DNA from: an uncultured Erysipelotrichaceae bacterium
Lineage (GTDB): Bacteria > Bacillota_I > Bacilli_A > RFN20 > CAG-826
NCBI GenBank assembly: GCA_900315885.1
Contig: ONAT01000001.1
Location: forward strand, 81,920 to 145,919
Reading direction: 5' to 3'
Length of the DNA stretch: 64,000 bases
The notes beneath the pieces are model-generated. The model did not search any database. It saw only the letters and a list, made by a program, of their open reading frames with translations, and was not told the origin of the DNA. A program made the translations under genes and the position numbers. Shown here one piece after another: positions 24,992 through 53,150 of this stretch (its first letter is position 1; the number at the start of each line of letters is the position of its first letter).

Positions 24992-25118
24992 ATTATCACC
25001 TCATGACGTTATTTATATTAGCACTTTTTAAAAAATATATAAATATAAATTGATTAAATATGGAGAAAAGATAAAATATAAGTGTAGAATAAGGAAAATA
25101 ATATTAGGGGCGAGCATT

Positions 25119-25847
25119 ATGGAAAAGTTTTTATATCAGTTGGTTATTTGTGTATTTGCGTATTTACAAACGTTTGGTTTTTGGTTTGTAGTAGGCACAA
25201 CTATTGATGGAATAGCGTCGATAATTTTGGCATTTTTGGTTTTAGTTTTATCATGTATTCTTGAAATATTTCTTACATGTTATAAGAAGTGGTATTGTGC
25301 ATTTTTAAATCTTTTCTTTGTTCCTATTAAATTCTTTGTACGTGTTGTTGCGGTTCTTTGCTATTTTATTAAAAAACATGAGTTCCCTTCACAAGGCACT
25401 AATAGGAATGATTTTAAAACTAATTTTGTTTATGCTTTAACAGGAATTGATATTTCGCCTGAAGAAGAAAGCAAAATTAATCAAAACGAAGAAGAAAAGC
25501 AACATTTACTTGAAAATGATTTAGATTTTAAATATTTTGAGTCTTTGTTTTCTTCTTTAAAAGATGAACCTAAAAATCAAGCAATTAAAAAAAATTATTA
25601 TTTTTCAAAACCACATGGATATTGCAAGGATTTTAAATATCATTTTGAAGAAAGTGAAGCTTTTATGGTGCTTGATGTAGTGTATTGTTGGAATGATAGA
25701 GATATTGACGCTAAGGACAATTATGAAATATTTAAGGAAGAATACAAGCAAAAAATACTTAATTATTGGGATGAGTATGTTAATCGCTTTATCGGTGTGA
25801 CGAAAATGCATTATATAATTAATTTTAGCGCAGAATACAAATATTAG
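25119..25847 (+). CDS. 3-TM membrane protein with a conserved C-terminal domain of unknown family (paralog A)
   Basis: ATG 25119 lies 8 nt after TAGGGG. Three hydrophobic helices are followed by a charged linker and a C-terminal domain ending GVTKMHYIINFSAEYKY. It is paralogous to the next gene. Confidence 0.7.
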   Translation: MEKFLYQLVICVFAYLQTFGFWFVVGTTIDGIASIILAFLVLVLSCILEIFLTCYKKWYCAFLNLFFVPIKFFVRVVAVLCYFIKKHEFPSQGTNRNDFKTNFVYALTGIDISPEEESKINQNEEEKQHLLENDLDFKYFESLFSSLKDEPKNQAIKKNYYFSKPHGYCKDFKYHFEESEAFMVLDVVYCWNDRDIDAKDNYEIFKEEYKQKILNYWDEYVNRFIGVTKMHYIINFSAEYKY

Positions 25848-25918
25848 ATTTTCGAATAGACAAAGTCACTATTTGGTAATAAAATATAAATGTTTATTTT
25901 ATTAAGGAGACTTTGTTT

Positions 25919-26692
25919 ATGAAAAGACTTATTTATCACGTCATCATGCTTATGTTAATCTCTGCTCAAACCGGGGTACTTTTGTTTGCGCTTTCTGATT
26001 CTGATCCTTCAAATATGACATTAGCGCTTGTCGGAGTAGTGGCTTTAAGTATTATTGAAAAATTTTTATCTGGTGAAAGAAAATGGTATTGTATTATTTT
26101 AAATATCATTCTTATACCACTCAAATTAATTGTTAGACCAATAATGCTTTTGATTTATCTCCTTACGAATCATAGATTACCAGAAAGAGGTTGCGCGGAA
26201 GATACTTTTGGTGGGAATTTTGTCTATATTTTAACTGGTACAGATTTTGGCTTACCTAAAAAACAAAAAATGTCTTACGAAGAGTTTCGTGAGGAATTAG
26301 CTAATAACAGAAGAGAATATGAAAAAGAGAAAAGAGAAAGAAAAGAATTCGAAGAAGCCTTAAAAAGTGGAAGAATTATTCCAGATCCAGACTTTAAATA
26401 TTTTAAGAAAGATTTTGAATATATAAAAAAAGGCGCTATTACAGGTTATATAGGTGGAAGCTCTAGATATTTTTCTTGTCGTTTCAATGGAACTAAAGCA
26501 CATATTACTTTTGATGCGATTTTCTATTGGCATTTGGACTATAATCAAGACAGCGAAGCTGATTCTTATGAAGAATTTAAACGAAAATGCAAAAGAAATA
26601 TAGAAGCAACTTATGAAGATTATTGTAGACATTTTAGAGGTGTAACAGAATTACAATATAATATTAACTTTAGTGTGGAATATAAAAAATAA
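25919..26692 (+). CDS. 3-TM membrane protein with a conserved C-terminal domain of unknown family (paralog B)
   Basis: ATG 25919 lies 9 nt after AAGGAG. It shares KWYC..LN....P.K..VR, NFVY.LTG.D, D.DFKYF and GVT...Y.INFS.EYK with paralog A. Confidence 0.7.
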   Translation: MKRLIYHVIMLMLISAQTGVLLFALSDSDPSNMTLALVGVVALSIIEKFLSGERKWYCIILNIILIPLKLIVRPIMLLIYLLTNHRLPERGCAEDTFGGNFVYILTGTDFGLPKKQKMSYEEFREELANNRREYEKEKRERKEFEEALKSGRIIPDPDFKYFKKDFEYIKKGAITGYIGGSSRYFSCRFNGTKAHITFDAIFYWHLDYNQDSEADSYEEFKRKCKRNIEATYEDYCRHFRGVTELQYNINFSVEYKK

Positions 26693-26887
26693 TTTAAGTG
26701 TGGTTTATTATTTGATTTTAAAATGATATCATTGCATTTTAAATCAACACAATAATTTGTTTTAAATTTCGAATTTTAAGGAATTTATTAAGTGTAAAAA
26801 AATCCCATTTTTAGATAGAATTATGAATATTTTTAAACTTTCAACGGAAATATTATGCTTATGATTGACTTAAAAAGATAAATTATA

Positions 26888-29308
26888 TCAATATGTTAAC
26901 TTAATTAGTATTATTATAAGTACTAAAACAAAAACTATGAAAATTATAGATGCAATTATAAGTTTGATTTTTTCTCTTTTAAAATATTCTTCGACCTCCT
27001 GTCTAATTAAGATATATTTATTTCCTTGTTTGTATTTCTTTAATACACCCGAATGAACTATTTTCATTACTCTGTACCTAGAATTTTTATAAACGTGCAT
27101 TATTTCGTTGACAGTTATGTACTTCCATGCATTTTCATTAGTTGTATTTTTTATTGGTGACACATATGGATAATCATTCATTAGCGATAGCACATTTTTA
27201 ATTGCTAATACAAATCTGTTAGTACTTAATTGATCGAATTTTATATTTAATCCATTTTTAGATAAATCTATTCCAATGATTGTTCCGGTGCCAAATGAAA
27301 TATGCTTCACTCTTTGACCTATTTTTGCGCTTTTAATTAATTGATAGTCAATATCGGCTGTTGTACAATTGCTCACAGATGAAATGCTTTTTTGCTTATC
27401 CGATAGTTTGGCACCAATCCACTCAATTTGGGTTGGATTAATATCAAAAATAAATCTAGATGGTTGCATTTCTCCACTTGTAGAATAATCAAATCCTTCA
27501 GCATCTGACAAATATAATTGTTTTTCTGCTCGCGTGAAGGCAACATAAGCTAATCTGCGTTCTTCTTCCATTTGTTTCTGTGTGGTGGCTCGGCTTATTG
27601 GAAAATTATTTTCGTTTAATGCGCAAACAAAAACATATTTAAACTCTTGACCCTTTGATATATGTGCGGTCATCATTTTTATCTTGTCTATGCAATCATC
27701 ATCTTTATCAGAATTTGCGACAAGTGTAATATTTTCTATATATTGTAATAATGTTAAATTTTCCCCATCAGAATCTTCATAATTCTTAATTGATTCTAAT
27801 AGTTCGTTAACATTATCGATTCTATCATCATCTGCTTTCGTGATGAGATTTTCTTCATAACCTGATTTTTGGTACAAAAAACTTAAAATATCAGATACCT
27901 TATTATTTTTGATTTGCAATACAGAGTTGATCAAATCGATAAATTCTTTAACTTTTGCACCTTTAAGAATTGCATCATCCTTATATAACAACAAGTTTTC
28001 ATAAAGACTCTTACCATTCTCTTTTTGCTTTTCAGTTAAGAATTGGATTTTTTTATTGCCAAATTGTCTTGAGGGAGTGTTAATGATTCTTTTGAATGAA
28101 ACATCATCAAAATTTATTACAAATCTTAAATAAGAAATCAAATCCTTAATTTCTTTTCTTTCGTAAAATCCAATACTGCCATAAATTCGATAAGAAATAT
28201 TTGCTTTTAATAACCCTTCTTCTACGAACCTAGAATTCCTATTTGTTCGGTAAATAATAGCAATATTATTAGCTGACTCACCACTTGATATTATTTCTTT
28301 TATAGTAGAGCATATCCAGTTAGCTTCTTCATCTCTGCTTTTAGCATGATAATAGATTGGTTTAGCAAAAGATATATTGCCAGTTTTCATTTGTTTATCA
28401 AGTCTCTCACTATTGTGTTTTATTAAAGTATTTGATAATTCAATTATTTCTGGTGTGGATCTATAATTTGTATTAAGAAAAATAGTCTTACAATTAGGGT
28501 AAATTTTATCAAATGAGTATATATAATCTTTCGCACCTCTCCAAGAATAAATCATTTGGTCTGGATCGCCAACTACAAAAAGATTTTTATGCTTGCCTGA
28601 AATGAATTGTGCAATTGTAAATTCGGATTCGGTAACATCTTGGAATTCATCTATTAGCACATATTGAAATTTCTCTTGATATTTTTCTAGGACATCGGGA
28701 TATTTTTCAAATATATATATACACATATAAATGAGATCATTAAAATCAAGATAATAATTCTTTCTTTGATATTTAAGAAATTCAACTACTGAATTTGGCG
28801 CATCTATTTCTTTGGACAAAAGTGGATCTGTCAAAAATTCAATGTACGATTCTAGGTTAAATTTTTTATAACTTCCGATGGTGTCTGCAAATTGCTTATA
28901 GTTCATTTCTTTTTTATCAATTGATAATTTCTCATAAATGTCTTTATATATACTTTCTAAATCTTGCTCATCTAGTATATTGAATGATTTGGGGTAGTTA
29001 ATATGAAAAATCTCATCTCTTAGTATTCTCGCACAAAAGCCATGAAATGTATGAATGTAACCAGAAAAGTTATTTCCAAAGACTTTTTTTAATCTATTTT
29101 TCATTACATCAGCAGCTTTATTTGTAAATGTAATACATAAAATATTATCAGAAGAAATACCACAATTAGAAATTAAATATCCATATCTATTAACTAACGT
29201 TCTAGTTTTTCCTGAACCAGGACCTGCAACTACTCTTACATATCCTTCAGTATTAATAACGGCTTCTTTTTGGGCGTCATTCAATCCGCTAATAAAACTA
29301 TTGTCCAT
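26888..29308 (-). CDS. PcrA/UvrD-type SF1 helicase with a C-terminal Tudor-like segment, an extra HTH and a C-terminal TM anchor
   Basis: AGPGSGKT, LIDEFQD, VGDPDQMIYSWRGA, NYRSTPEI, MTAHISKGQEF and VAFTRAEKQLYLS motifs, then GQRVKHISFGTGTIIG. An HTH-like block follows (YITVNEIM...KYILIRQEVEEYF), and the last 26 aa are entirely hydrophobic. RBS GGAGG. Confidence 0.9.
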   Translation of the reverse strand: MDNSFISGLNDAQKEAVINTEGYVRVVAGPGSGKTRTLVNRYGYLISNCGISSDNILCITFTNKAADVMKNRLKKVFGNNFSGYIHTFHGFCARILRDEIFHINYPKSFNILDEQDLESIYKDIYEKLSIDKKEMNYKQFADTIGSYKKFNLESYIEFLTDPLLSKEIDAPNSVVEFLKYQRKNYYLDFNDLIYMCIYIFEKYPDVLEKYQEKFQYVLIDEFQDVTESEFTIAQFISGKHKNLFVVGDPDQMIYSWRGAKDYIYSFDKIYPNCKTIFLNTNYRSTPEIIELSNTLIKHNSERLDKQMKTGNISFAKPIYYHAKSRDEEANWICSTIKEIISSGESANNIAIIYRTNRNSRFVEEGLLKANISYRIYGSIGFYERKEIKDLISYLRFVINFDDVSFKRIINTPSRQFGNKKIQFLTEKQKENGKSLYENLLLYKDDAILKGAKVKEFIDLINSVLQIKNNKVSDILSFLYQKSGYEENLITKADDDRIDNVNELLESIKNYEDSDGENLTLLQYIENITLVANSDKDDDCIDKIKMMTAHISKGQEFKYVFVCALNENNFPISRATTQKQMEEERRLAYVAFTRAEKQLYLSDAEGFDYSTSGEMQPSRFIFDINPTQIEWIGAKLSDKQKSISSVSNCTTADIDYQLIKSAKIGQRVKHISFGTGTIIGIDLSKNGLNIKFDQLSTNRFVLAIKNVLSLMNDYPYVSPIKNTTNENAWKYITVNEIMHVYKNSRYRVMKIVHSGVLKKYKQGNKYILIRQEVEEYFKREKIKLIIASIIFIVFVLVLIIILIKLTY

Positions 29309-29369
29309 TGAATTTTCCTCCTAACAAGTTACGATAAATTATTAAAGAAATAAAATATTTGATATTTTA

Positions 29370-29398
29370 ACTATATTATTGTGACTATTCTTTTTCAA
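29370..29398 (-). promoter_or_regulatory. Putative sigma-A promoter of the helicase gene
   Basis: On the minus strand: TTGAAA (29398-29393), a 17-nt spacer, then TATAGT (29375-29370). Confidence 0.4.
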
Positions 29399-29412
29399 GT
29401 GTTTTTCAAGTA
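29391..29412 (-). repeat. Tandem 11-nt direct repeat spanning the -35 region
   Basis: Plus strand reads TTTTTCAAGTG TTTTTCAAGTA. Each unit carries a TTGAAA on the minus strand. Confidence 0.6.
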
Positions 29413-29653
29413 AGATTTTTGTTGCTTTTTATAAATTTCTTAACTGTCACTTTCGAAGAAGTGCCAAAAAAATTAATGACGAGGCATTTTTGTGTATCCG
29501 GCAAAATAGAAATGGAGGAAATGAAATACAGACACTTTTTTGGACTATGTTTGGCAATAATTTAGTATAAATTCGGAAACAAATAATTTGTATTTATTTA
29601 AAACTCTTTGATTTCTTGTGTAGCCAAATCCTCGACATAGAATGAACCATCGT

Positions 29654-29905
29654 TTATTTCTTAAGTCTAGTTTTAATTTTTACAAGTAATTCAAGAATCT
29701 CTTTTTTGTTTTTCTTGGCAATCTCTTTATTAAATATACATGGTTGATTGTCAGTATCAAATTCATAACATTCAGAATATAATTCAGAACATCTTAAATT
29801 TAATTTAGAAAGCGTTGTATCATCGTCGATGATGGCTACTCCAGTTAAAGATTGAACTGTTTCAACATCGCTAATCCAAATAGGACATTGCAAATAATCA
29901 AACAT
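29654..29905 (-). CDS. Orphan 83-aa protein (acidic, Cys-containing, Lys-rich C-terminal helix), no recognisable family
   Basis: ATG-to-stop ORF in an otherwise non-coding AT-rich stretch, with only a weak RBS. The composition looks protein-like. Confidence 0.45.
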   Translation of the reverse strand: MFDYLQCPIWISDVETVQSLTGVAIIDDDTTLSKLNLRCSELYSECYEFDTDNQPCIFNKEIAKKNKKEILELLVKIKTRLKK

Positions 29906-30025
29906 TAATTTTACTTTTTCTATTTTTCTACCTCGCTTTTAATTTCATTAACTATTTTTATTTTATAAGATATGTAAATGGAATTAAATAATTTATGCGT
30001 ACAGCAGCAAATTGATATATCTACA

Positions 30026-30058
30026 TAAAGAAAAAGTTGATACTTTTGGTATCAACTT
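30026..30058 (-). terminator. Rho-independent terminator of the tRNA operon
   Basis: On the minus strand: AAGTTGATAC-CAAAA-GTATCAACTT followed by TTTTCTTT. Confidence 0.65.
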
Positions 30059-30071
30059 ATTTACTCTACGA

Positions 30072-30158
30072 TGGTGCCCGGGACCGGAATTGAACCGGTA
30101 TGGTATTGCTACCGCAGGATTTTAAGTCCTGTGCGTCTACCTATTCCGCCACCTGGGC
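30072..30158 (-). tRNA. tRNA-Leu (anticodon UAA), type II with long variable arm, CCA encoded
   Basis: Hand-folded cloverleaf with anticodon loop CTTAAAA and T-loop TTCAATT. There is one A5-C68 mismatch in the acceptor stem. Confidence 0.9.
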
Positions 30159-30165
30159 ATCAAGA

Positions 30166-30241
30166 TGGTGACTCGCCGGAGATTCGAACTCCGGACCCCT
30201 TGATTAAAAGTCAAGTGCTCTACCGACTGAGCTAGCGAGTC
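30166..30241 (-). tRNA. tRNA-Lys (anticodon UUU), CCA encoded
   Basis: GACTCGCTAGCTCAGTCGGTAGAGC..., anticodon loop CTTTTAA, acceptor GACTCGC/GCGAGTC. Confidence 0.95.
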
Positions 30242-30247
30242 ATATAT

Positions 30248-30323
30248 TGGCTGGGGTAACTGGGATCGAACCAGTGAAATGACAGAGTCAAAGTCTGTTG
30301 CCTTACCGCTTGGCTATACCCCA
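30248..30323 (-). tRNA. tRNA-Gln (anticodon UUG), CCA encoded
   Basis: TGGGGTATAGCCAAGCGGTAAGGC..., anticodon loop CTTTGAC, acceptor TGGGGTA/TACCCCA. Confidence 0.95.
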
Positions 30324-30330
30324 ATAAGGA

Positions 30331-30414
30331 TGGTGGAGGAAGGTGGATTTGAACCACCGAACCCTAAGGAACTGATTTACAGTCAGCCGCGTTTGGCCGC
30401 TTCGCTATTCCTCC
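30331..30414 (-). tRNA. tRNA-Tyr (anticodon GUA), long variable arm, CCA encoded
   Basis: GGAGGAATAGCGAAGCGG..., anticodon loop CTGTAAA, acceptor GGAGGAA/TTCCTCC. Confidence 0.95.
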
Positions 30415-30435
30415 ACGAAGTTACTCTACACATAA

Positions 30436-30511
30436 TGGTGGATGTTGAGGGGATCGAACCCCCGACCTCTACCTTGTAAGGGTAATGCTCTCCCAGCTGA
30501 GCTAAACATCC
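30436..30511 (-). tRNA. tRNA-Val (anticodon UAC), CCA encoded
   Basis: GGATGTTTAGCTCAGCTGGGAGAGC..., anticodon loop CTTACAA, acceptor GGATGTT/AACATCC. Confidence 0.95.
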
Positions 30512-30534
30512 GCATATTGATTACGCGCTTTTAT

Positions 30535-30563
30535 AATATAACATCCACTAAATAATTAGTCAA
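30535..30563 (-). promoter_or_regulatory. Sigma-A promoter of the tRNA operon
   Basis: On the minus strand: TTGACT (30563-30558), a 17-nt spacer, then TATATT (30540-30535), about 25 nt upstream of tRNA-Val. Confidence 0.6.
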
Positions 30564-30621
30564 TAATTTTTGTTGAAAAATTCCGTTTTGTGAAATATTG
30601 TTCGTTTTATACTAACTGTGA

Positions 30622-30656
30622 TAAAAAAGAAGGAAAGTTGTGGAGCTTTCCTTCTT
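30622..30656 (-). terminator. Rho-independent terminator downstream of pgi
   Basis: 11-bp stem AAGAAGGAAAG / CTTTCCTTCTT followed by T6 on the minus strand. Confidence 0.7.
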
Positions 30657-30665
30657 ATTAATGTT

Positions 30666-32324
30666 CTAGTAACCTTTCTTTCCTAATAAGTGGAACATAT
30701 TCTTTTTATAGATTTCTACACCTGGTTGATTGAATGGGTTGATTTCTAATAAATATGCGGACATTGCGCATGCACGCATGAAGAAGTAGAACAAGCCACC
30801 TAAACTATATGCATCCATTTTATCAACAGAAATGATAATGTTTGGAACATGACCGTCTTCTTCATGAGCTTTTAATGTTCCTTGCATTGCTTGTTCATTA
30901 ACGAATGATAACTTTTTACCTTCAAGATAATTTAAGCCATCAAGATTTGCATCATCATGAGGGACTTCAATATCGATAAATGGTTTATTTACTTTAATGA
31001 TTGTCTCAAACAAAATTGGGGAACCATCTTGAATAAATTGTCCAAGTGAATGCAAGTCAGTAGAGAATGTGACAGATCCAGGGAATAAACCTTTCTTTTC
31101 TTTTCCTTCTGATTCACCAAATAATTGTTTTAACCATTCGCCAATTTGTGTTAAAGAAGGTTCATATGTTACAAATAATTCAACAGATTTATTGTGGTGA
31201 TAGAAGTAGTCACGAATTACAGCATATTGATAGCATTCATTAGTAGCTAAATCAGGATTGTTATATTTAATCATTGAATCTTTAGCACCTTTGAGCATTT
31301 CTTTAATGTCAACACCTGCACATGCGATTGGGAACAACCCAACAGCAGTAAGGACGCTATATCTTCCACCAATATCATCAGGTAAGATAAATGTTTCATA
31401 ACCTTCAATATTGCAAAGTTCTTTTAAAGCACCACGTGCCTTGTCAGTAGTGGCAAATATTGCTTTTTTGCTTGCTTCTTCGCCGACTTGTTTGATTAAT
31501 AATTCACGAACAAGTCTAAAAGCAATGGATGTTTCAGTGGTTGTACCTGATTTTGAAATAACATTAATAGCAAATTTCTTTCCTTCTAAATATTTCATAA
31601 CTTGTGCAATATAAGTAGGAGAGAATGTTTGACCCAAATAAATAATTTTAAGTTTATCATCACTATATAAACCTTTAAGAGCGTCGATAGCGGCACGTGC
31701 ACCTAAATAGGAACCGCCGATACCACATACAACTAATATATCAAAATTATTTCTAACATATTCAGCGCATTTAATCATTCTTTCGACTTCTTCTTTGTTA
31801 TAATCTTCCGGCCAAGTTGTCCAGCCTAAGAAGTCATTACCTAATCCTGTTTTTTCGTTAATTTTTTTGTTTATTTCTTTGACTTTTTCAGCGTAATTTT
31901 GCATATCGACTTTGTCGATGATGTGTGTAAAATCTGTTTTAATCATATTATTTTCCTCCAATGATTCATTTATCCAACCGTCAAGGTGGTTTCTTAATAT
32001 TTCAAAATCCTTATCATCATGCCTTATTTTTACTCTTTTAGGTTTATTAAAAGATAAAGGATTTTTAATTTGTTGTCTTTCACGGTCATTAACAGCTTTT
32101 AAAGATAATTTTAAATAGTTATTCTTTTCTTCAAAACCGAGAACTTTAACACGGATAGTCTCGCCAATCTTAACATAATCTTCAATATTTTTTACAAATC
32201 TTGATGATATTTCTGAAATGTGGATAAGACCAGTTTGCCCGTTATCTAATGAAACAAAAGCCCCATAATTTTGAATGCCTGTTACTTTTCCGATTGCTAT
32301 ATCATTTTCTTTATAAATCTTCAT
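30666..32324 (-). CDS. pgi: In-frame fusion ORF: GSP13/YugI-like S1 RNA-binding protein (aa 1-126) + glucose-6-phosphate isomerase (aa 127-552)
   Basis: S1 domain IGKVTGIQNYGAFVSL..GLIHISE plus a GSP13-like tail DFEILRNHLDGWINES. It is followed with no stop by MIKTDF...GNDFLGWTTWP...CGIGGSYLGARA, a Bacillus-type Pgi from its first residue. An internal GGAGG (31959-31955) lies 8 nt upstream of ATG 31946. Confidence 0.9.
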   Translation of the reverse strand: MKIYKENDIAIGKVTGIQNYGAFVSLDNGQTGLIHISEISSRFVKNIEDYVKIGETIRVKVLGFEEKNNYLKLSLKAVNDRERQQIKNPLSFNKPKRVKIRHDDKDFEILRNHLDGWINESLEENNMIKTDFTHIIDKVDMQNYAEKVKEINKKINEKTGLGNDFLGWTTWPEDYNKEEVERMIKCAEYVRNNFDILVVCGIGGSYLGARAAIDALKGLYSDDKLKIIYLGQTFSPTYIAQVMKYLEGKKFAINVISKSGTTTETSIAFRLVRELLIKQVGEEASKKAIFATTDKARGALKELCNIEGYETFILPDDIGGRYSVLTAVGLFPIACAGVDIKEMLKGAKDSMIKYNNPDLATNECYQYAVIRDYFYHHNKSVELFVTYEPSLTQIGEWLKQLFGESEGKEKKGLFPGSVTFSTDLHSLGQFIQDGSPILFETIIKVNKPFIDIEVPHDDANLDGLNYLEGKKLSFVNEQAMQGTLKAHEEDGHVPNIIISVDKMDAYSLGGLFYFFMRACAMSAYLLEINPFNQPGVEIYKKNMFHLLGKKGY

Positions 32325-49122: not shown

Positions 49123-50235
49123 ATGAAAAAGAAAAACAAAATTAATACTGTGGATGAATCAGTTAATGTTGCAGAAGAAACAGCTAATGCTAAAGAAGAT
49201 GTAACTACTGCTCCTAGTAAGGACGCGAATACTGAAGAAAAAGCAGTTGATGTTGATATAGATAAAAAGAAAAATAAACCAAAAAAAGCAAAAAAACCAA
49301 TTAATAAAGCTAATCTAATAATTACTATTTCAGTAGTTATTTTTGGTATTGTAAGTGGTGGCTTTATTGGCGATTACTTAATACAAAAAAATAGATCAAA
49401 CGAAGTGAATTATAACGCTGATGAATATCAAGGCGAATTAAAAACAACTCAAGCAAAGTGGGAAGACCTTCAAAAAAGAAATGTTTCTAAATTAGAAGAA
49501 GAATTAACGGCAGTTGAATTTGTGCAAATTGCTATTTCAGAAACACAAAAACAAAATTATTTATGTGAGGGCTTTGGTGTTACCAAAGCTGGATCTTTAT
49601 CTACGCAAAATGTCACATCAATTAAAGCAAAAATAAATGATAAATCGTATTTTGAAAGTATATCAGGTGGTGCGATGGCGCAAGTTGCGGCTAGATATGT
49701 AGGAAGCAATGACAAAATCACCAAGTATACTTCAGAAGCAAAATATATTGTTAAAGACCGTTCGACAGAAAAAGTTGATATATACTTAGCCACATATACA
49801 AAGCAAGAAGAAATGACTTATGAAAAATACGAAGAAACTTTTGGAGCCGCATTTACTTCTTTGCTTGATTACGTTATTTATTCTAAAACAATTGATACTA
49901 GTACTGAGCCAAGCGTAAAAACTGAAAATGGTGGCTATCGCATTAAACTAGCTTTAAATGACGATGCAACTCCACTTTACAAGAAAAAAATTGCAGCAAC
50001 TGAAGATAGAGTGGACTCTGTTAGTGAATTTTTCTTTGTGAACTTAGATATAGTTTTAGATAGTTCACTTCGCATTAAACAAATGAATATCGTTGAACGT
50101 TATAAAATGTATGCTTTTAATATTCCAATTACTTGTGATGCATTCTTGGATGCAAATTATTTTTATGACGATATAAACGAAAGCATTATTCCAAATATGA
50201 ATAAAGAATATTCCGTAAGGAGTGATTTAAAATGA
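49123..50235 (+). CDS. Single-pass membrane protein with a Lys/Glu-rich cytoplasmic N-terminus and a ~280-aa extracytoplasmic domain, unknown family
   Basis: RBS AAGGAAAAG. The TM helix is ANLIITISVVIFGIVSGGFIG. Its stop overlaps the next start (ATGA). Confidence 0.75.
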   Translation: MKKKNKINTVDESVNVAEETANAKEDVTTAPSKDANTEEKAVDVDIDKKKNKPKKAKKPINKANLIITISVVIFGIVSGGFIGDYLIQKNRSNEVNYNADEYQGELKTTQAKWEDLQKRNVSKLEEELTAVEFVQIAISETQKQNYLCEGFGVTKAGSLSTQNVTSIKAKINDKSYFESISGGAMAQVAARYVGSNDKITKYTSEAKYIVKDRSTEKVDIYLATYTKQEEMTYEKYEETFGAAFTSLLDYVIYSKTIDTSTEPSVKTENGGYRIKLALNDDATPLYKKKIAATEDRVDSVSEFFFVNLDIVLDSSLRIKQMNIVERYKMYAFNIPITCDAFLDANYFYDDINESIIPNMNKEYSVRSDLK

Positions 50236-53150
50236 AAAAAATCTTTAGTTATATTATAACTTATTTTAGTGTAACAGCCTGTGTAGCAACTGGTGTCACA
50301 CAAGTTGATAGACTTAGCAATCAAAACCATGGAGGACCAACTTCAATTTCATCTTCGGTTAATAAACCACATGTTGAAATAACTCCAATGCAAAAATTCC
50401 TTGAAAAGGCTATGACAAGTCAAGGCATTGAATTAGAAGCAAAAGTAGAAGTTAGTAAAAACAATGAAAATATGTTAAATGCAAATGTTGATGGATGTGT
50501 GGATTTATCAACTTTAGCAAATACTGGTGAAATTAAACTGGCAATGGATCTTTCTATTGACTCTGATTTAGTGGATACAAGTTTCTCAATTGGTTATTTT
50601 GCACCTTATGCATATATCTATAACGATGCAATACACGCTAAACTTGAGACTAGCGATACAATTGAGGGCGTAAAAGATTTACTTAAAATATTTGCCCCAT
50701 CTTTAGACTTAAATGGCTTTAAAGATATGACAAGTGGAATATCTACAAACGAATTAGTTAATGAATTGACAAACTTAGAACTTGATAATATGCCGGATGG
50801 CACACTTAAAGGTGTACTAAGTATTGGTGATTTAGTGGATGTTGCTTTGTATTTAGATAAAGATTCTAATTTAGTGCGCGCACAAATTGAAGAATTATGT
50901 GTTAAAGATTTTGTGGTATCAATTGATGCAAAAACCAATTTCTTACAAGAGTGTTCTTTATCTTCACCAGAAGAGAAAATCGCCTTTGATGATTACACAA
51001 GTCTTACAAGTATTGTGCGTAATACCTATGACTTTGTAAATCAAAAACAATATGCTTTATTATTAAATGCTTCTTTACAAAAAGAAGAAGATGTAATTGC
51101 GTTAAACGCTGATACAATCTTTGATTTAGCTAAGAACGAATACTACGCTAAAGCAAAAGTGGATTATCTAGATAAATCTCTCGACCTAGAAGCTAATTAT
51201 AGTGACGATAACAGTTTATTATTCTCTATTGGTGACAAGATTAAAGGTCAACTTAGTAAGGAAAATATTACACGTATTAAAGATATAATAAGTAAATATT
51301 TACCTAATGATGGAGACTTTACAAAAATTATCAATGATGCATTAGAAAAAGTATTCACTAATGAAGAAATCAATAAATTAAAGAGCATAACAATTAATGA
51401 TGCGCTTAAATTATTCTCTAGTGTTATAAAAAATGACGATGTTATCGAAATTAAATTAAATGCGAATGACTATATTGAAGGTAATGGCGAAATTATCTTA
51501 GATATTGATGTTATAGATGAGCAAATTAAAAATGTAAAACTAAAGAATGTATTCTTAAAAGGTTACAAAATTAATTTAGGTTTAGAAGTAAAAGAGTTTG
51601 AATCTGTGCCTAATCTTAATGTTGACGAGTATCCAAGTTATGAGCCATTAATCGATATTTACGATGAAGTGATGTTGTTAAGTGAAGAAACGCATTTTGG
51701 CTTTAATGTTAATATGCATTTTGAAAACAAAGGAAAACAATACGATATTAATGGTTTAGTACAATTTGCTTTAGATAAAGAGAATAAAGAAAATAACAAA
51801 GCCTATGTTGAATTATTGATTAACGATAGTGTTAAAGAACATACCTTAATCATGGATTTAAATAACGCAAATATGTATTTCTGTTATGACACAGATTTAA
51901 AAGGCAGAATGCAAATAAATACCTTGAAAAATATGGTTCAACAAATTAAAACTCTTTTAGAGGATGATGACCCTTTATTAAGTGGAATAACAAGTTTAAT
52001 CCCTTCAGAAGAAGACCTTGCGGTTTTAATGCAAATACTTAACAAAGATTATTCTTCAATTTCCTTAGATTTGTTAAAAGTATTTAATGTAACAAGTGAA
52101 AACTTATGTGTTACTTTTGATAAATCATTATTTGGCACAATGGAAGATGTTTCATTAAGTGTTTCTTATAACAACAAAAAATTAACAGACCTTGCTATTA
52201 CAAATGTTAATTTAAATGGTCTTAAAATGAATCTAAGTGCAACAATGGGAACTTATGATGAAAATAAACACTTGGATTTAACACAAAATTATTTAGATTT
52301 AGATGCTTTGGATATCTTATTAAAATTAGGTATCACTACAATGCATCAAGAATATTATCACTTAAGTGGTTCGGCAGATGTTGACTTTGTTTTAGTTGGT
52401 TCTGATATGAAAATAGGCATTGATGTTTATATTCATAATAATAACGGCGAGCCAGAAGTTCGTGTAGATTTAAAGAACATTCCTATTATTAATTTCTTAG
52501 GATACGGTAATGCTTTACCAGCTTCTTTAGTCGCTAACGAGCATAGTGGTTATAAAGGCGGTTTAACTAGCACATCTAGTGATAATCGTAATGCTTCATT
52601 ATACTTCAATAATGGATTAGTTTACGTAAATAGAAGCGAAGATGCTACTTTCAAAAAGATCTTTAAATCAGATGTTAATGAAAAATACGAAGTAAGAAAA
52701 AAGATGTCAACAGAAGATTTCTTAAACGATGTATTTAATGTAATGTTTGATGCAGTTTTAGGATTTAATTCTAAAACAATGGATATTATTAATGACCAAT
52801 TAACAATGCAACCTGTTGAACAAATGCAATTTAATAAGTTGATTAATGATATGAGTTATGATGCCGCGAACCAAGAATTCTTATATAACCTTAATATGAG
52901 TGCAATTACCGGTAATGATGCAATAAAATCAACTGTCTTAAAAATTAATCACGCTGTAAGTGATGGCGAAGACCATTTAAGCGCTGCAAATATTGCAATG
53001 AAGATTGGTTTATCAGTATTTACCATTAAAATTAATGTAAATTTAAATATAGTTGATTATGGTCAAGAATTTAATATTGAGACTTTGATTTATGATTATA
53101 TCAATAATCACAAAGATGATGAAGAAAGCTATGTTTCACATACTAAGTAA
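50232..53150 (+). CDS. Large (972 aa) predicted lipoprotein with three internal ~210-aa repeats, unknown family
   Basis: Signal peptide with a lipobox (YFSVTA-C). Three modules each contain Y.Y.D...K..M....T....V....K.L and end in a ..V.L.G.K.NL.. type strand. Confidence 0.8.
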   Translation: MKKIFSYIITYFSVTACVATGVTQVDRLSNQNHGGPTSISSSVNKPHVEITPMQKFLEKAMTSQGIELEAKVEVSKNNENMLNANVDGCVDLSTLANTGEIKLAMDLSIDSDLVDTSFSIGYFAPYAYIYNDAIHAKLETSDTIEGVKDLLKIFAPSLDLNGFKDMTSGISTNELVNELTNLELDNMPDGTLKGVLSIGDLVDVALYLDKDSNLVRAQIEELCVKDFVVSIDAKTNFLQECSLSSPEEKIAFDDYTSLTSIVRNTYDFVNQKQYALLLNASLQKEEDVIALNADTIFDLAKNEYYAKAKVDYLDKSLDLEANYSDDNSLLFSIGDKIKGQLSKENITRIKDIISKYLPNDGDFTKIINDALEKVFTNEEINKLKSITINDALKLFSSVIKNDDVIEIKLNANDYIEGNGEIILDIDVIDEQIKNVKLKNVFLKGYKINLGLEVKEFESVPNLNVDEYPSYEPLIDIYDEVMLLSEETHFGFNVNMHFENKGKQYDINGLVQFALDKENKENNKAYVELLINDSVKEHTLIMDLNNANMYFCYDTDLKGRMQINTLKNMVQQIKTLLEDDDPLLSGITSLIPSEEDLAVLMQILNKDYSSISLDLLKVFNVTSENLCVTFDKSLFGTMEDVSLSVSYNNKKLTDLAITNVNLNGLKMNLSATMGTYDENKHLDLTQNYLDLDALDILLKLGITTMHQEYYHLSGSADVDFVLVGSDMKIGIDVYIHNNNGEPEVRVDLKNIPIINFLGYGNALPASLVANEHSGYKGGLTSTSSDNRNASLYFNNGLVYVNRSEDATFKKIFKSDVNEKYEVRKKMSTEDFLNDVFNVMFDAVLGFNSKTMDIINDQLTMQPVEQMQFNKLINDMSYDAANQEFLYNLNMSAITGNDAIKSTVLKINHAVSDGEDHLSAANIAMKIGLSVFTIKINVNLNIVDYGQEFNIETLIYDYINNHKDDEESYVSHTK

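What the first reader, a model, noticed from the sequence alone, without database searches (positions are those of the whole stretch)
26888..29308. PcrA/UvrD-type helicase carrying an extra excisionase-like HTH and a C-terminal membrane anchor
The 806-aa ORF has the full SF1A motif set: AGPGSGKT, LIDEFQD, VGDPDQMIYSWRGA, NYRSTPEI, MTAHISKGQEF and VAFTRAEKQLYLS. It also has a PcrA-like C-terminal Tudor/SH3-like segment (GQRVKHISFGTGTIIGIDLSKNGLNIKF). Unlike housekeeping PcrA/UvrD, it then continues for about 50 aa (nt ~26969-27127) that read like an excisionase/MerR-type HTH (YITVNEIM..RYRVMKIVHSGVLKKYKQGNKYILIRQEVEEYF). It ends in 26 uninterrupted hydrophobic residues (IKLIIASIIFIVFVLVLIIILIKLTY, nt 26891-26968), which makes it a predicted tail-anchored membrane protein. 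I do not know of a described membrane-tethered SF1 helicase with its own HTH. The gene has its own promoter, sits among AT-rich spacers next to a tRNA operon, and has no repair or replication partners nearby. That context fits a defence, plasmid-exclusion or mobile-element-derived role better than a core repair role.
Basis: partly seen in the sequence, partly recalled or inferred. Interest (0 to 1): 0.7.

Follow-up and report, generated by a model that had tools for sequence, protein, structure and literature searches.

The report
Membrane-tethered accessory PcrA-like helicase
A gut bacterium carries an optional extra DNA helicase whose tail is a small DNA-binding domain followed by a membrane anchor, and the same tail also occurs on known anti-phage nucleases, so it probably guards the cell membrane against incoming foreign DNA, though this is untested.

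Summary
Window 26888-29308(-) encodes an intact 806-aa SF1A UvrD/PcrA-type helicase. After the core come a Tudor-like barrel, a disordered linker, an excisionase/BldC-type winged HTH (aa 729-780) and one C-terminal TM helix (aa 781-803).

The tail is real. It is kept in five further protein clusters down to 49% identity and is under purifying selection.

It is not the housekeeping PcrA:
- It scores 561 bits against the NCBIfam PcrA cutoff of 911.
- The gene sits in a 3,338-bp segment (26722-30059), starting right after tRNA-Leu, that is replaced by an unrelated 718 bp in strains with 99.2-99.5% identical flanks.
- Another strain carries a Type IIG restriction-modification system at the same spot.

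A profile of the tail, searched against 1.84 billion protein representatives, found this helicase as the only helicase carrier. It found the same HTH+TM tail on homologues of the defence proteins UzuA (Uzume, GIY-YIG) and PDC-S61 (PD-(D/E)XK-like), and on an exonuclease with a PcrA-type Tudor domain.

Best reading: an accessory, membrane-tethered DNA-binding helicase from the defence or mobile gene pool. It probably acts on DNA entering at the membrane, analogous to SNIPE but not homologous to it. The defence function is inferred, not shown. It is a new variant of a known kind.

The parts
26722..30059 (.). Strain-variable cassette (3,338 bp, GC 27.4% against 32.1% in the flanks). It holds ORF83 and the helicase, and is replaced by an unrelated 718-bp AT-rich stretch in near-identical strains.
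   Evidence: blastn of the window against L014 and L016-L022: the flanks are 99.2-99.5% identical and homology breaks at window 30060 and 26721.
26888..29308 (-). CDS of the 806-aa PcrA-like SF1A helicase with Tudor-like, wHTH and TM tail.
27389..29308 (-). Helicase core (aa 1-640; domains 1A/1B/2A/2B; all motifs intact).
   Evidence: Pfam UvrD-helicase plus UvrD_C. Motif scan. Foldseek to PcrA 1pjr with TMt 0.82. dN/dS 0.09-0.16.
27173..27346 (-). Tudor/SH3-like beta barrel (aa 655-712), a divergent PcrA/UvrD C-terminal domain.
   Evidence: PF21196 at 15 bits, below its cutoff. AlphaFold2 strands at 666-709 with pLDDT 80-89.
27125..27172 (-). Disordered linker (aa 713-728). Its length and sequence vary among homologues.
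   Evidence: pLDDT below 50 for 712-725. dN/dS above 1. Alignment.
26969..27124 (-). Excisionase/BldC-type winged HTH (HTH_17-like, aa 729-780).
   Evidence: Invariant V10, N11, R21, Y22, H29, S30, K37, G39, N40 and K41 in the tail alignment A1.
26891..26968 (-). C-terminal tail anchor (aa 781-806): a hydrophobic helix of about 22 residues, preceded by KREKIK and followed by only KLTY.
   Evidence: Hydropathy. A continuous helix 769-805. Terminal TM in all five homologue clusters.
29370..29398 (-). Sigma-70-like promoter match (TTGAAA-17-TATAGT) 62 nt upstream of the ATG.
   Evidence: Consensus scan only. Promoter-like sites are not significantly enriched in this AT-rich region.
29654..29905 (-). 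ORF83, a small gene of unknown function inside the cassette. It is probably not an obligatory partner.
   Evidence: No Pfam, PADLOC or PHROG hit. It is broken in the 94%-identical helicase locus L009. It is absent next to P0002, P0003 and P0004.
30072..30158 (-). tRNA-Leu(taa), the last gene of a five-tRNA cluster. Its 3' end marks one cassette boundary. A terminator-like hairpin lies at 30034-30058.

Best explanation
This is an accessory, strain-variable PcrA-like SF1A DNA helicase. It sits as cargo in a variable hotspot next to a tRNA-Leu gene in a ruminant and pig gut Erysipelotrichaceae chromosome.

Anatomy: it is anchored to the cytoplasmic face of the membrane by a C-terminal tail anchor. 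An excisionase-type winged HTH lies directly against the membrane. The ATPase/helicase core and a Tudor-like barrel hang from it on a flexible linker.

Proposed mechanism (inferred): the enzyme polices DNA that appears at the membrane, such as injected phage DNA or incoming conjugative or transforming DNA. The HTH holds the DNA at the membrane. The 3'-5' translocase then unwinds it or strips proteins from it, which blocks establishment or exposes it to host nucleases. Self and non-self are told apart by location, as shown for SNIPE.

Shown here: domain composition, conservation, purifying selection on the tail, presence/absence polymorphism, the hotspot, and sharing of the tail with defence nucleases.

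Inferred: membrane insertion and topology, DNA binding, the substrate, and the defence phenotype.

The confidence given (0.5) is for the full statement including the defence or exclusion function. For 'accessory membrane-tethered helicase' alone it is about 0.85.
For: Anatomy and conservation.

Not PcrA:
- TIGR01073 gives 561 bits against a cutoff of 911 for this protein. Its relatives score 495-624.
- Canonical PcrA of Staphylococcus and Listeria is only about 36% identical.

Accessory:
- Of 22 contigs carrying the identical NifU neighbour, the helicase is present in L015 (+3 similar) and L019.
- It is absent from L014 (+6 similar), L016, L017, L018, L020, L021 and L022. Flank identity is 99.2-99.5% for L014 and L016.

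Hotspot: L022 carries a Type II MTase (365 bits) and a Type IIG REase-MTase (1093 bits) at the same place.

No conserved operon among homologues.

Tail module:
- A profile search over 1.84 billion representatives found the P0001 cluster as the only helicase carrier.
- 25 of the 149 top relatives have a terminal TM.
- Of the 17 that are at least 120 aa, 8 have PDC-S61 N-termini (up to 358 bits) and 3 have UzuA (213-273 bits).
- P0243 combines PDDEXK_3, an apparent DEDD-type exonuclease segment (read from the sequence, no Pfam hit), a PcrA Tudor, HTH_17 and a TM.

Precedent for membrane-localised DNA-targeting immunity: SNIPE (PMC13190303).
Against: - There is no functional data.
- The cassette has no nuclease, no partner gene conserved across homologues, and no integrase or repeats.
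- A helicase alone is an unusual single-gene defence.
- PADLOC GajB and RTasHel hits only reflect general UvrD similarity.
- Only one alternative cargo at the hotspot is a recognised defence system. The commonest allele is a 718-bp spacer with a small membrane ORF.
- PDC-S61 is a candidate defence family, not a validated one.
- Transcription evidence is minimal: one 240-nt metatranscriptome contig at depth 2.2.
- The TM was predicted without a dedicated topology predictor.
Confidence: 0.5

Rival explanations
1. It is a helicase derived from a mobile element. It would be a remnant or cargo of a plasmid, ICE or prophage that uses a PcrA-like helicase with an Xis-like DNA-binding domain for rolling-circle replication, excision or DNA transfer at the membrane, rather than for defence.
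For: - Insertion is immediately 3' of a tRNA gene, with presence/absence polymorphism.
- The HTH is of the excisionase family.
- UvrD-like genes are common on plasmids and phages.
- The P0002 and P0003 loci carry HTH_3 regulators.
Against: - The cassette holds no integrase, relaxase, Rep or structural gene, and has no flanking direct repeats.
- No phage, plasmid or viral-contig record carries the tail.
- The homologues' neighbourhoods are chromosomal and unrelated to each other.
Confidence: 0.17
2. It is a non-essential genome-maintenance paralogue. Through its Tudor-like domain it would bind RNA polymerase. It would resolve R-loops or transcription-replication conflicts at membrane-proximal (transertion) sites, or act during sporulation.
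For: - It retains a PcrA-like Tudor/SH3 barrel, and that domain binds RNAP in PcrA/UvrD (PMC5397179, PMC8318588).
- The host is a spore former, with YutH and YunB nearby.
- One homologue sits in an apparent operon with SbcD- and SbcC-like genes.
Against: - Patchy strain distribution and placement in a hotspot that elsewhere holds an R-M system.
- The Tudor match is below the Pfam threshold.
- The tail is shared with nucleases of defence families, not with repair proteins.
Confidence: 0.1
3. The HTH+TM tail is mainly a regulatory leash. It would keep a potentially toxic helicase or nuclease away from the nucleoid until a signal, such as proteolytic release or envelope damage by phage, frees it. 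This would be an abortive-infection-like mode rather than direct interception of entering DNA.
For: - The tail recurs on nucleases that would be toxic if free.
- A disordered, fast-evolving linker precedes the HTH.
Against: - The conserved, purifying-selected DNA-binding surface right at the membrane suggests that DNA is bound there.
- No protease or sensor partner is conserved.
Confidence: 0.12
4. It is the organism's housekeeping PcrA with a lineage-specific C-terminal decoration, or the tail is an assembly or frameshift artefact.
For: The best-scoring NCBIfam model is PcrA and the best PDB match is Geobacillus PcrA.
Against: - It scores 350 bits below the equivalog cutoff.
- The gene is absent from strains 99.2-99.5% identical in the flanks, although pcrA is essential in Bacillus (PMC7385302).
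- It is never next to ligA.
- The tail is found on 11 independent contigs and in five diverged clusters.
Confidence: 0.02

Closest known systems
PcrA / UvrD / Rep (SF1A helicases; G. stearothermophilus PcrA 1pjr/3pjr, E. coli UvrD 2is1/3lfu)
   Same: It has the full four-subdomain core with every motif. It is 36% identical to PcrA, with TMt 0.82 to 1pjr. A C-terminal Tudor/SH3-like barrel follows the core.
   Different: - It is below the PcrA equivalog threshold.
- It is strain-variable rather than essential, and is not linked to ligA.
- It carries about 95 extra residues: linker, wHTH and TM.

It belongs to a PcrA-like paralogue group of Clostridia and Erysipelotrichia. All ten relatives tested fail the PcrA cutoff.
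SNIPE (membrane-bound GIY-YIG nuclease that cuts phage DNA during injection; PMC13190303)
   Same: The logic is the same: a single-pass membrane anchor, a DNA-binding module and a nucleic-acid enzyme facing the cytoplasm. Self and non-self would be told apart by location.
   Different: - There is no homology.
- SNIPE has an N-terminal TM, DUF4041 and a GIY-YIG nuclease. Here the order is reversed (enzyme, wHTH, C-terminal TM) and the enzyme is a helicase.
- No interaction with phage tape-measure or host transporters is known for this protein.
Gabija GajB and other defence-associated UvrD-family helicases (DRT RTasHel, DarH)
   Same: They are UvrD-family helicases recruited to phage defence. 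PADLOC GajB profiles match along the whole core at up to 313 bits. UvrD-like helicases in DarHTG and Gabija variants are described in PMC13069673.
   Different: - There is no GajA/TOPRIM, RT or DarTG partner anywhere in the cassette.
- GajB has no HTH or TM tail.
- The similarity is generic to the superfamily.
Uzume (UzuA, GIY-YIG) and PADLOC candidate PDC-S61 (PD-(D/E)XK-like)
   Same: Variants of both families carry the same HTH_17+TM C-terminal module as this helicase.
   Different: The catalytic domains are unrelated to a helicase. The reference profiles of UzuA (277 positions) and PDC-S61 (253 positions) end before any HTH or TM, so the tail is an add-on in these variants too.
Excisionase / BldC / MerR-N-terminal winged HTH (Pfam HTH_17)
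   Same: The fold and sequence signature of aa 729-780 match.
   Different: Known members are small soluble proteins or N-terminal domains of regulators. Here the domain is fused directly to a tail anchor at the end of an enzyme.

Membership tests
SF1A UvrD/Rep/PcrA helicase superfamily | UvrD-helicase and UvrD_C domains with motifs Q, I, Ia, II, III, IV, V and VI | tested here: met
   Pfam gives 236 and 218 bits. All motifs were found. Foldseek to 1pjr and 3lfu gives E 1e-50.
PcrA (NCBIfam TIGR01073 equivalog) | Whole-protein score at or above the curated cutoff of 911.2 bits | tested here: not met
   561.2 bits. Relatives P0002-P0112 score 495-624 bits.
PcrA (housekeeping orthologue) | Present in all strains of the species (essential in Bacillus) and typically linked to ligA | tested here: not met
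   It is absent from L014 (+6 similar), L016-L018 and L020-L022 despite 94-99.5% identical flanks. There is no ligA next to it or to its relatives. The essentiality statement comes from PMC7385302.
PcrA/UvrD C-terminal Tudor domain (PF21196) | Profile match above 23.9 bits and RNAP binding | tested here: inconclusive
   15 bits, E 0.023. AlphaFold2 gives a five-strand barrel at 666-709. RNAP binding cannot be tested with these tools.
HTH_17 (PF12728, excisionase-type wHTH) | Profile match at or above 27 bits, and the beta-alpha-alpha-beta-beta winged-helix fold | tested here: inconclusive
   This copy scores 24.6 bits, E 3e-5, just below the cutoff. P0001, P0002 and P0005 carry PF12728 in the precomputed tables. 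The fold criterion is met: TM 0.75-0.84 to phage HTH/excisionases and 0.61-0.68 to BldC, RdfS and Xis.
Tail-anchored membrane protein | A single hydrophobic helix within the last 30 residues or so, no other TM or signal peptide, and the bulk of the protein cytoplasmic | tested here: met
   The only hydropathy peak is at aa 778-806, maximum 3.7. A helix spans 769-805. KREKIK lies on the cytoplasmic side and 3-4 residues lie outside. Actual insertion cannot be tested with these tools.
Gabija (GajA+GajB) | A GajB helicase encoded next to a GajA ATPase-TOPRIM nuclease | tested here: not met
   GajB profiles match at 313 bits, but no GajA-like gene is in the cassette or the flanks.
SNIPE | An N-terminal membrane-targeting region, DUF4041 and a GIY-YIG nuclease | tested here: not met
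   Pfam and PADLOC show none of these domains. The architecture is taken from PMC13190303. The resemblance is functional analogy only.
Defence-island / hotspot cargo | Presence/absence polymorphism at a fixed chromosomal site that holds known defence systems in other strains | tested here: met
   The breakpoints are identical in all strains. A Type IIG R-M plus MTase occupies the site in L022. Only one such alternative cargo was seen.

The most novel reading that the evidence does not exclude
Gut Firmicutes possess a portable 'excisionase-type wHTH + tail anchor' module. It converts otherwise soluble DNA enzymes into membrane-stationed sentinels that intercept foreign DNA as it enters the cell. 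The enzymes so far are a PcrA-like helicase, Uzume-like GIY-YIG nucleases, PDC-S61 PD-(D/E)XK-like nucleases and an exonuclease. This helicase would then be the first membrane-tethered SF1 helicase acting as an immune effector. The module would be a second, independently evolved solution to the location-based self/non-self discrimination shown for SNIPE.
Probability: 0.3. Interest if true: 0.8.

Novelty: new variant of a known kind. Interest (0 to 1): 0.62.

Why it matters
If the reading holds, it extends the newly shown principle of immunity by location (SNIPE) in three ways: to a different enzyme class (a helicase), to Gram-positive gut bacteria, and to a different, modular anchoring device.

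The wHTH+TM tail would be a searchable signature for finding further membrane-stationed defence enzymes. It would also be a compact handle for tethering DNA enzymes to membranes.

The case also shows that a 'PcrA' annotation in Clostridia and Erysipelotrichia hides a large paralogue family with varied C-terminal elaborations. Ten of ten relatives tested here fail the PcrA equivalog cutoff.

Tried and rejected
- Two scans of the GTDB representative genomes, one with the tail profile and one with the whole protein, found nothing. This fits the one named genome of the species seen here (GCA_022777715.1 = L016), which lacks the cassette. It meant I could not look for the canonical pcrA in the same genome.
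- Word-indexed searches with the tail alignments were nearly empty. The exhaustive profile search was the informative one.
- Viral contigs, GenBank phages and PLSDB plasmids hold no tail-bearing relative.
- The metagenome scan added only one P0005-like locus.
- A sequence search of the PDB with the HTH profile was uninformative.
- ORF83 as a partner was rejected. It has no family hit, it is broken in L009, and it is absent next to other homologues.
- The two flanking paralogous membrane proteins as partners were rejected. They are present in helicase-less strains and absent from homologues' loci.
- No att-like flanking repeats were found, only AT-rich chance matches.
- No link was found between the Sel1 protein of L007 and the Sel1+HTH+TM protein P0163.
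- No Rfam element other than the tRNAs lies in 26000-31000.
- A literature search found no membrane-tethered UvrD-family helicase.
Full report
**1. What is there**

Window 26888-29308 on the minus strand is an uninterrupted 806-codon ORF. Pfam places UvrD-helicase at aa 9-264 (236 bits) and UvrD_C at 276-603 (218 bits). It also gives HTH_17 at 730-778 (E 3e-5, 24.6 bits, gathering score 27) and a weak PcrA_UvrD_tudor match at 663-693 (15 bits).

All SF1A motifs are intact. The only strongly hydrophobic segment is aa 778-806. Its Kyte-Doolittle 19-residue mean reaches 3.7.

An AlphaFold2 model built on 55 homologues (pLDDT 86.7) shows these parts in order:
- a PcrA-like core. Foldseek matches 1pjr at E 7e-51 with TMt 0.82. 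phmmer gives 418 bits to 1pjr;
- a five-strand barrel at 666-709;
- a disordered stretch at 712-725;
- a beta-alpha-alpha-beta-beta winged HTH at 730-768;
- a last helix that runs unbroken from 769 to 805, through the hydrophobic segment.

The HTH therefore sits directly on the membrane surface. It is preceded by the basic stretch KREKIK, and only three or four residues lie beyond the bilayer.

A separate model of the HTH (pLDDT 92) superposes on several known proteins:
- phage HTH/excisionase proteins, with TM 0.75-0.84 and rmsd 1.2-1.3 A;
- BldC, the RdfS excisionase and Tn916 Xis, with TM 0.61-0.68.

E-values are weak because the domain is short.

**2. The tail is real and selected**

The identical protein is encoded on 11 independent contigs from cattle, pig and other gut metagenomes. 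All 13 members of its 90% cluster are 806 aa.

Five further clusters, at 94, 70, 65, 54 and 49% identity, keep the same HTH+TM ending. Sequence in the TM is free, but hydrophobicity is preserved.

Nei-Gojobori dN/dS values are as follows. Synonymous sites are near saturation in the distant pairs.

| Region | dN/dS |
|---|---|
| Core | 0.09-0.16 |
| HTH | 0.24-0.39 |
| TM | 0.24-0.35 |
| Linker | above 1 |

In a neighbour-joining tree the tail-bearers form one clade. One tail-less member, P0006 (68.7% identical to P0004), is nested inside it. Tail-less P0007 and P0010 lie outside. This fits one gain and one loss. No remnant of the tail lies downstream of P0006.

**3. It is not PcrA**

The best NCBIfam model is the PcrA equivalog TIGR01073, but at 561 bits against a cutoff of 911. 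Ten relatives score 495-624. They include the 710-725-aa proteins that metagenome pipelines name 'pcrA' and the long Clostridium paralogues. The whole group is therefore a PcrA-like paralogue family.

Canonical PcrA of Staphylococcus and Listeria is about 36% identical, against 42-46% for this paralogue family. Neither this gene nor its relatives lie next to ligA. The window holds no second UvrD-like gene.

**4. It is strain-variable cargo in a hotspot**

The decisive result came from looking up the neighbouring 83-aa NifU protein. Its identical sequence lies on many contigs with the same gene order, from eno, gpmI, ispD, S1-pgi and the tRNA cluster through two membrane paralogues, nifU, yutH, yunB and fba. 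The stretch after the tRNA cluster differs between them.

blastn shows that homology to the window stops at 30060, twelve bases past the 3' end of tRNA-Leu(taa). It resumes at 26721, just beyond the stop of the 259-aa membrane protein.

- In L014 (plus six similar contigs) and L016, the flanks are 99.2-99.5% identical to the window. There the 3,338 bp between the breakpoints are replaced by an unrelated 718-bp AT-rich sequence.
- L017, L018, L020 and L021 have variants of that 718 bp.
- L022 instead carries an HTH_3 gene, a Type II methyltransferase (PADLOC 365 bits) and a 1,337-aa Type IIG restriction-methylase (1,093 bits).
- The helicase allele is in the window, L015 (+3 similar) and L019.

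L016 belongs to GCA_022777715.1, named 'Erysipelotrichaceae bacterium'. It lacks the cassette, which would explain why both scans of species-representative genomes found nothing.

Because pcrA is essential in Bacillus (PMC7385302), near-identical strains without this gene must rely on another helicase. This is inference; the canonical gene was not seen.

The cassette has lower GC than its flanks (27.4% against 32.1%). It has no integrase and no flanking repeats. Its only other ORF, ORF83, has no family match. It is disrupted in the 94% variant L009 and is absent from the other homologues' loci.

Homologues at 70, 65 and 54% identity sit in unrelated neighbourhoods. P0002 is followed after 17 nt by an SbcD-like and an 849-aa SbcC-like gene.

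**5. The tail is a shared module of defence enzymes**

A profile of the six tails was searched against 1.84 billion representatives and gave 316 hits. The only helicase among the 150 best hits listed is the P0001 cluster, so the fusion is very rare.

Most hits are soluble single or tandem HTH_17 proteins. However, 25 of the top 149 end in a TM helix right after the HTH. Of the 17 that are at least 120 aa:
- eight have N-termini matching the PADLOC candidate PDC-S61 (up to 358 bits, full-length);
- three match UzuA of the Uzume system (213-273 bits). P0174 also has a GIY-YIG Pfam match, and Uzume is listed among GIY-YIG single-gene systems (bioRxiv 10.1101/2024.10.26.620412);
- P0243 combines PDDEXK_3, an apparent DEDD-type exonuclease segment (read from the sequence, no Pfam hit), a PcrA-type Tudor domain (23.5 bits), HTH_17 (52 bits) and a TM. 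It therefore shares the whole Tudor-HTH-TM back end with the helicase.

The UzuA and PDC-S61 profiles end before any HTH, so the tail is an add-on there too. The PDC-S61+tail gene P0202 neighbours a DUF4379/REase-like gene.

**6. Mechanism**

Shown:
- an intact SF1A motor;
- a conserved wHTH abutting a terminal TM;
- a flexible, fast-evolving leash;
- accessory distribution in a hotspot that can hold an R-M system;
- a tail shared with nucleases of defence families.

Inferred: the protein is tail-anchored with its bulk in the cytoplasm. The HTH binds DNA at the membrane. The helicase acts on DNA that appears there, such as phage DNA being injected or ssDNA entering by conjugation or transformation. 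It would unwind that DNA from ends or nicks, or strip proteins from it. Location would supply the self/non-self discrimination.

This is the logic demonstrated for SNIPE, which has an N-terminal TM, the DNA-binding DUF4041 and a GIY-YIG nuclease (PMC13190303). There is no homology to SNIPE and the domain order is reversed.

I put about 0.85 on 'accessory membrane-tethered helicase' and about 0.5 on the defence or exclusion function.

Rivals:
- a mobile-element replication or transfer helicase (0.17);
- a non-essential RNAP-linked maintenance role at the membrane (0.1);
- the tail as a sequestration leash for an abortive response (0.12);
- housekeeping PcrA or an artefact (0.02).

**7. Novelty**

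Full-text searches found no membrane-tethered UvrD-family helicase. Known defence UvrD-like helicases (GajB, DarH, the RT-associated helicase) are soluble and work with partners.

I file this as a new variant of known kinds: a UvrD-family helicase in the defence gene pool, and membrane-stationed DNA-targeting immunity. It is not a member of PcrA, Gabija or SNIPE.

Transcription evidence is minimal: one 240-nt contig in a pig-gut metatranscriptome.

Noticed in passing
window 30666-32324 (-): Glucose-6-phosphate isomerase carries an N-terminal S1 RNA-binding domain (PF00575 + PF00342, 552 aa). The fusion is kept in nearly all related strains; in L016 the gene is called without S1.
   Followed up: no
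window 25050-25847 (+) and 25913-26692 (+): Two tandem paralogues (30% identical) with N-terminal TM helices and a soluble C-terminal domain. They have no Pfam or PADLOC hit. They are variable themselves: one is missing in L018 and L021, and they are truncated or broken in L016, L019 and L022. They border the hotspot but are not linked to the helicase.
   Followed up: partly
L022 228-5390: In another strain the same hotspot carries an HTH_3 gene, a Type II methyltransferase and a 1,337-aa Type IIG restriction-methylase (ResIII plus an NPPY methylase).
   Followed up: yes
window 29654-29905 (-); L009 1-821: ORF83, of unknown function, lies inside the cassette. It is disrupted by an indel or frameshift in the 94%-identical helicase locus. 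The upstream region there is only 81.6% identical and has 58 gaps.
   Followed up: partly
P0018, P0022, P0044, P0111 (Clostridium spp.): The same PcrA-like paralogue family carries other C-terminal elaborations. These are 130-270 aa of charged coiled-coil repeats, for example LRLELDSQEKDRLEK repeated many times, ending in a shared 'KNK..FFGKG..KK' motif.
   Followed up: no
L007 4917-10979: The 70%-identical tail-bearing helicase P0002 is followed after 17 nt by a Metallophos (SbcD-like) gene and an 849-aa AAA_23/AAA_15 (SbcC-like, weak LmuB) gene. This is a possible three-gene operon.
   Followed up: partly
P0243 / L026 1074-2753: A 559-aa protein combines PDDEXK_3, an apparent DEDD-type exonuclease segment (read from the sequence, no Pfam hit), a PcrA-type Tudor domain, HTH_17 and a terminal TM. 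It shares the whole Tudor-HTH-TM back end with the helicase.
   Followed up: partly
window 27090 / 29966 (run X26): One contig of a public run joins positions 27090 and 29966 through 35 unrelated bases. The matches are short and AT-rich, so it may be another hotspot allele or a spurious alignment.
   Followed up: no
window 50232-53150 (+): A 972-aa ORF with no Pfam match at E <= 0.001.
   Followed up: no
L014 7551-8268; L017 7786-8211: The common 'empty' allele of the hotspot is a 718-bp, 24% GC stretch. In some strains it encodes a 141-aa small multi-TM protein.
   Followed up: partly
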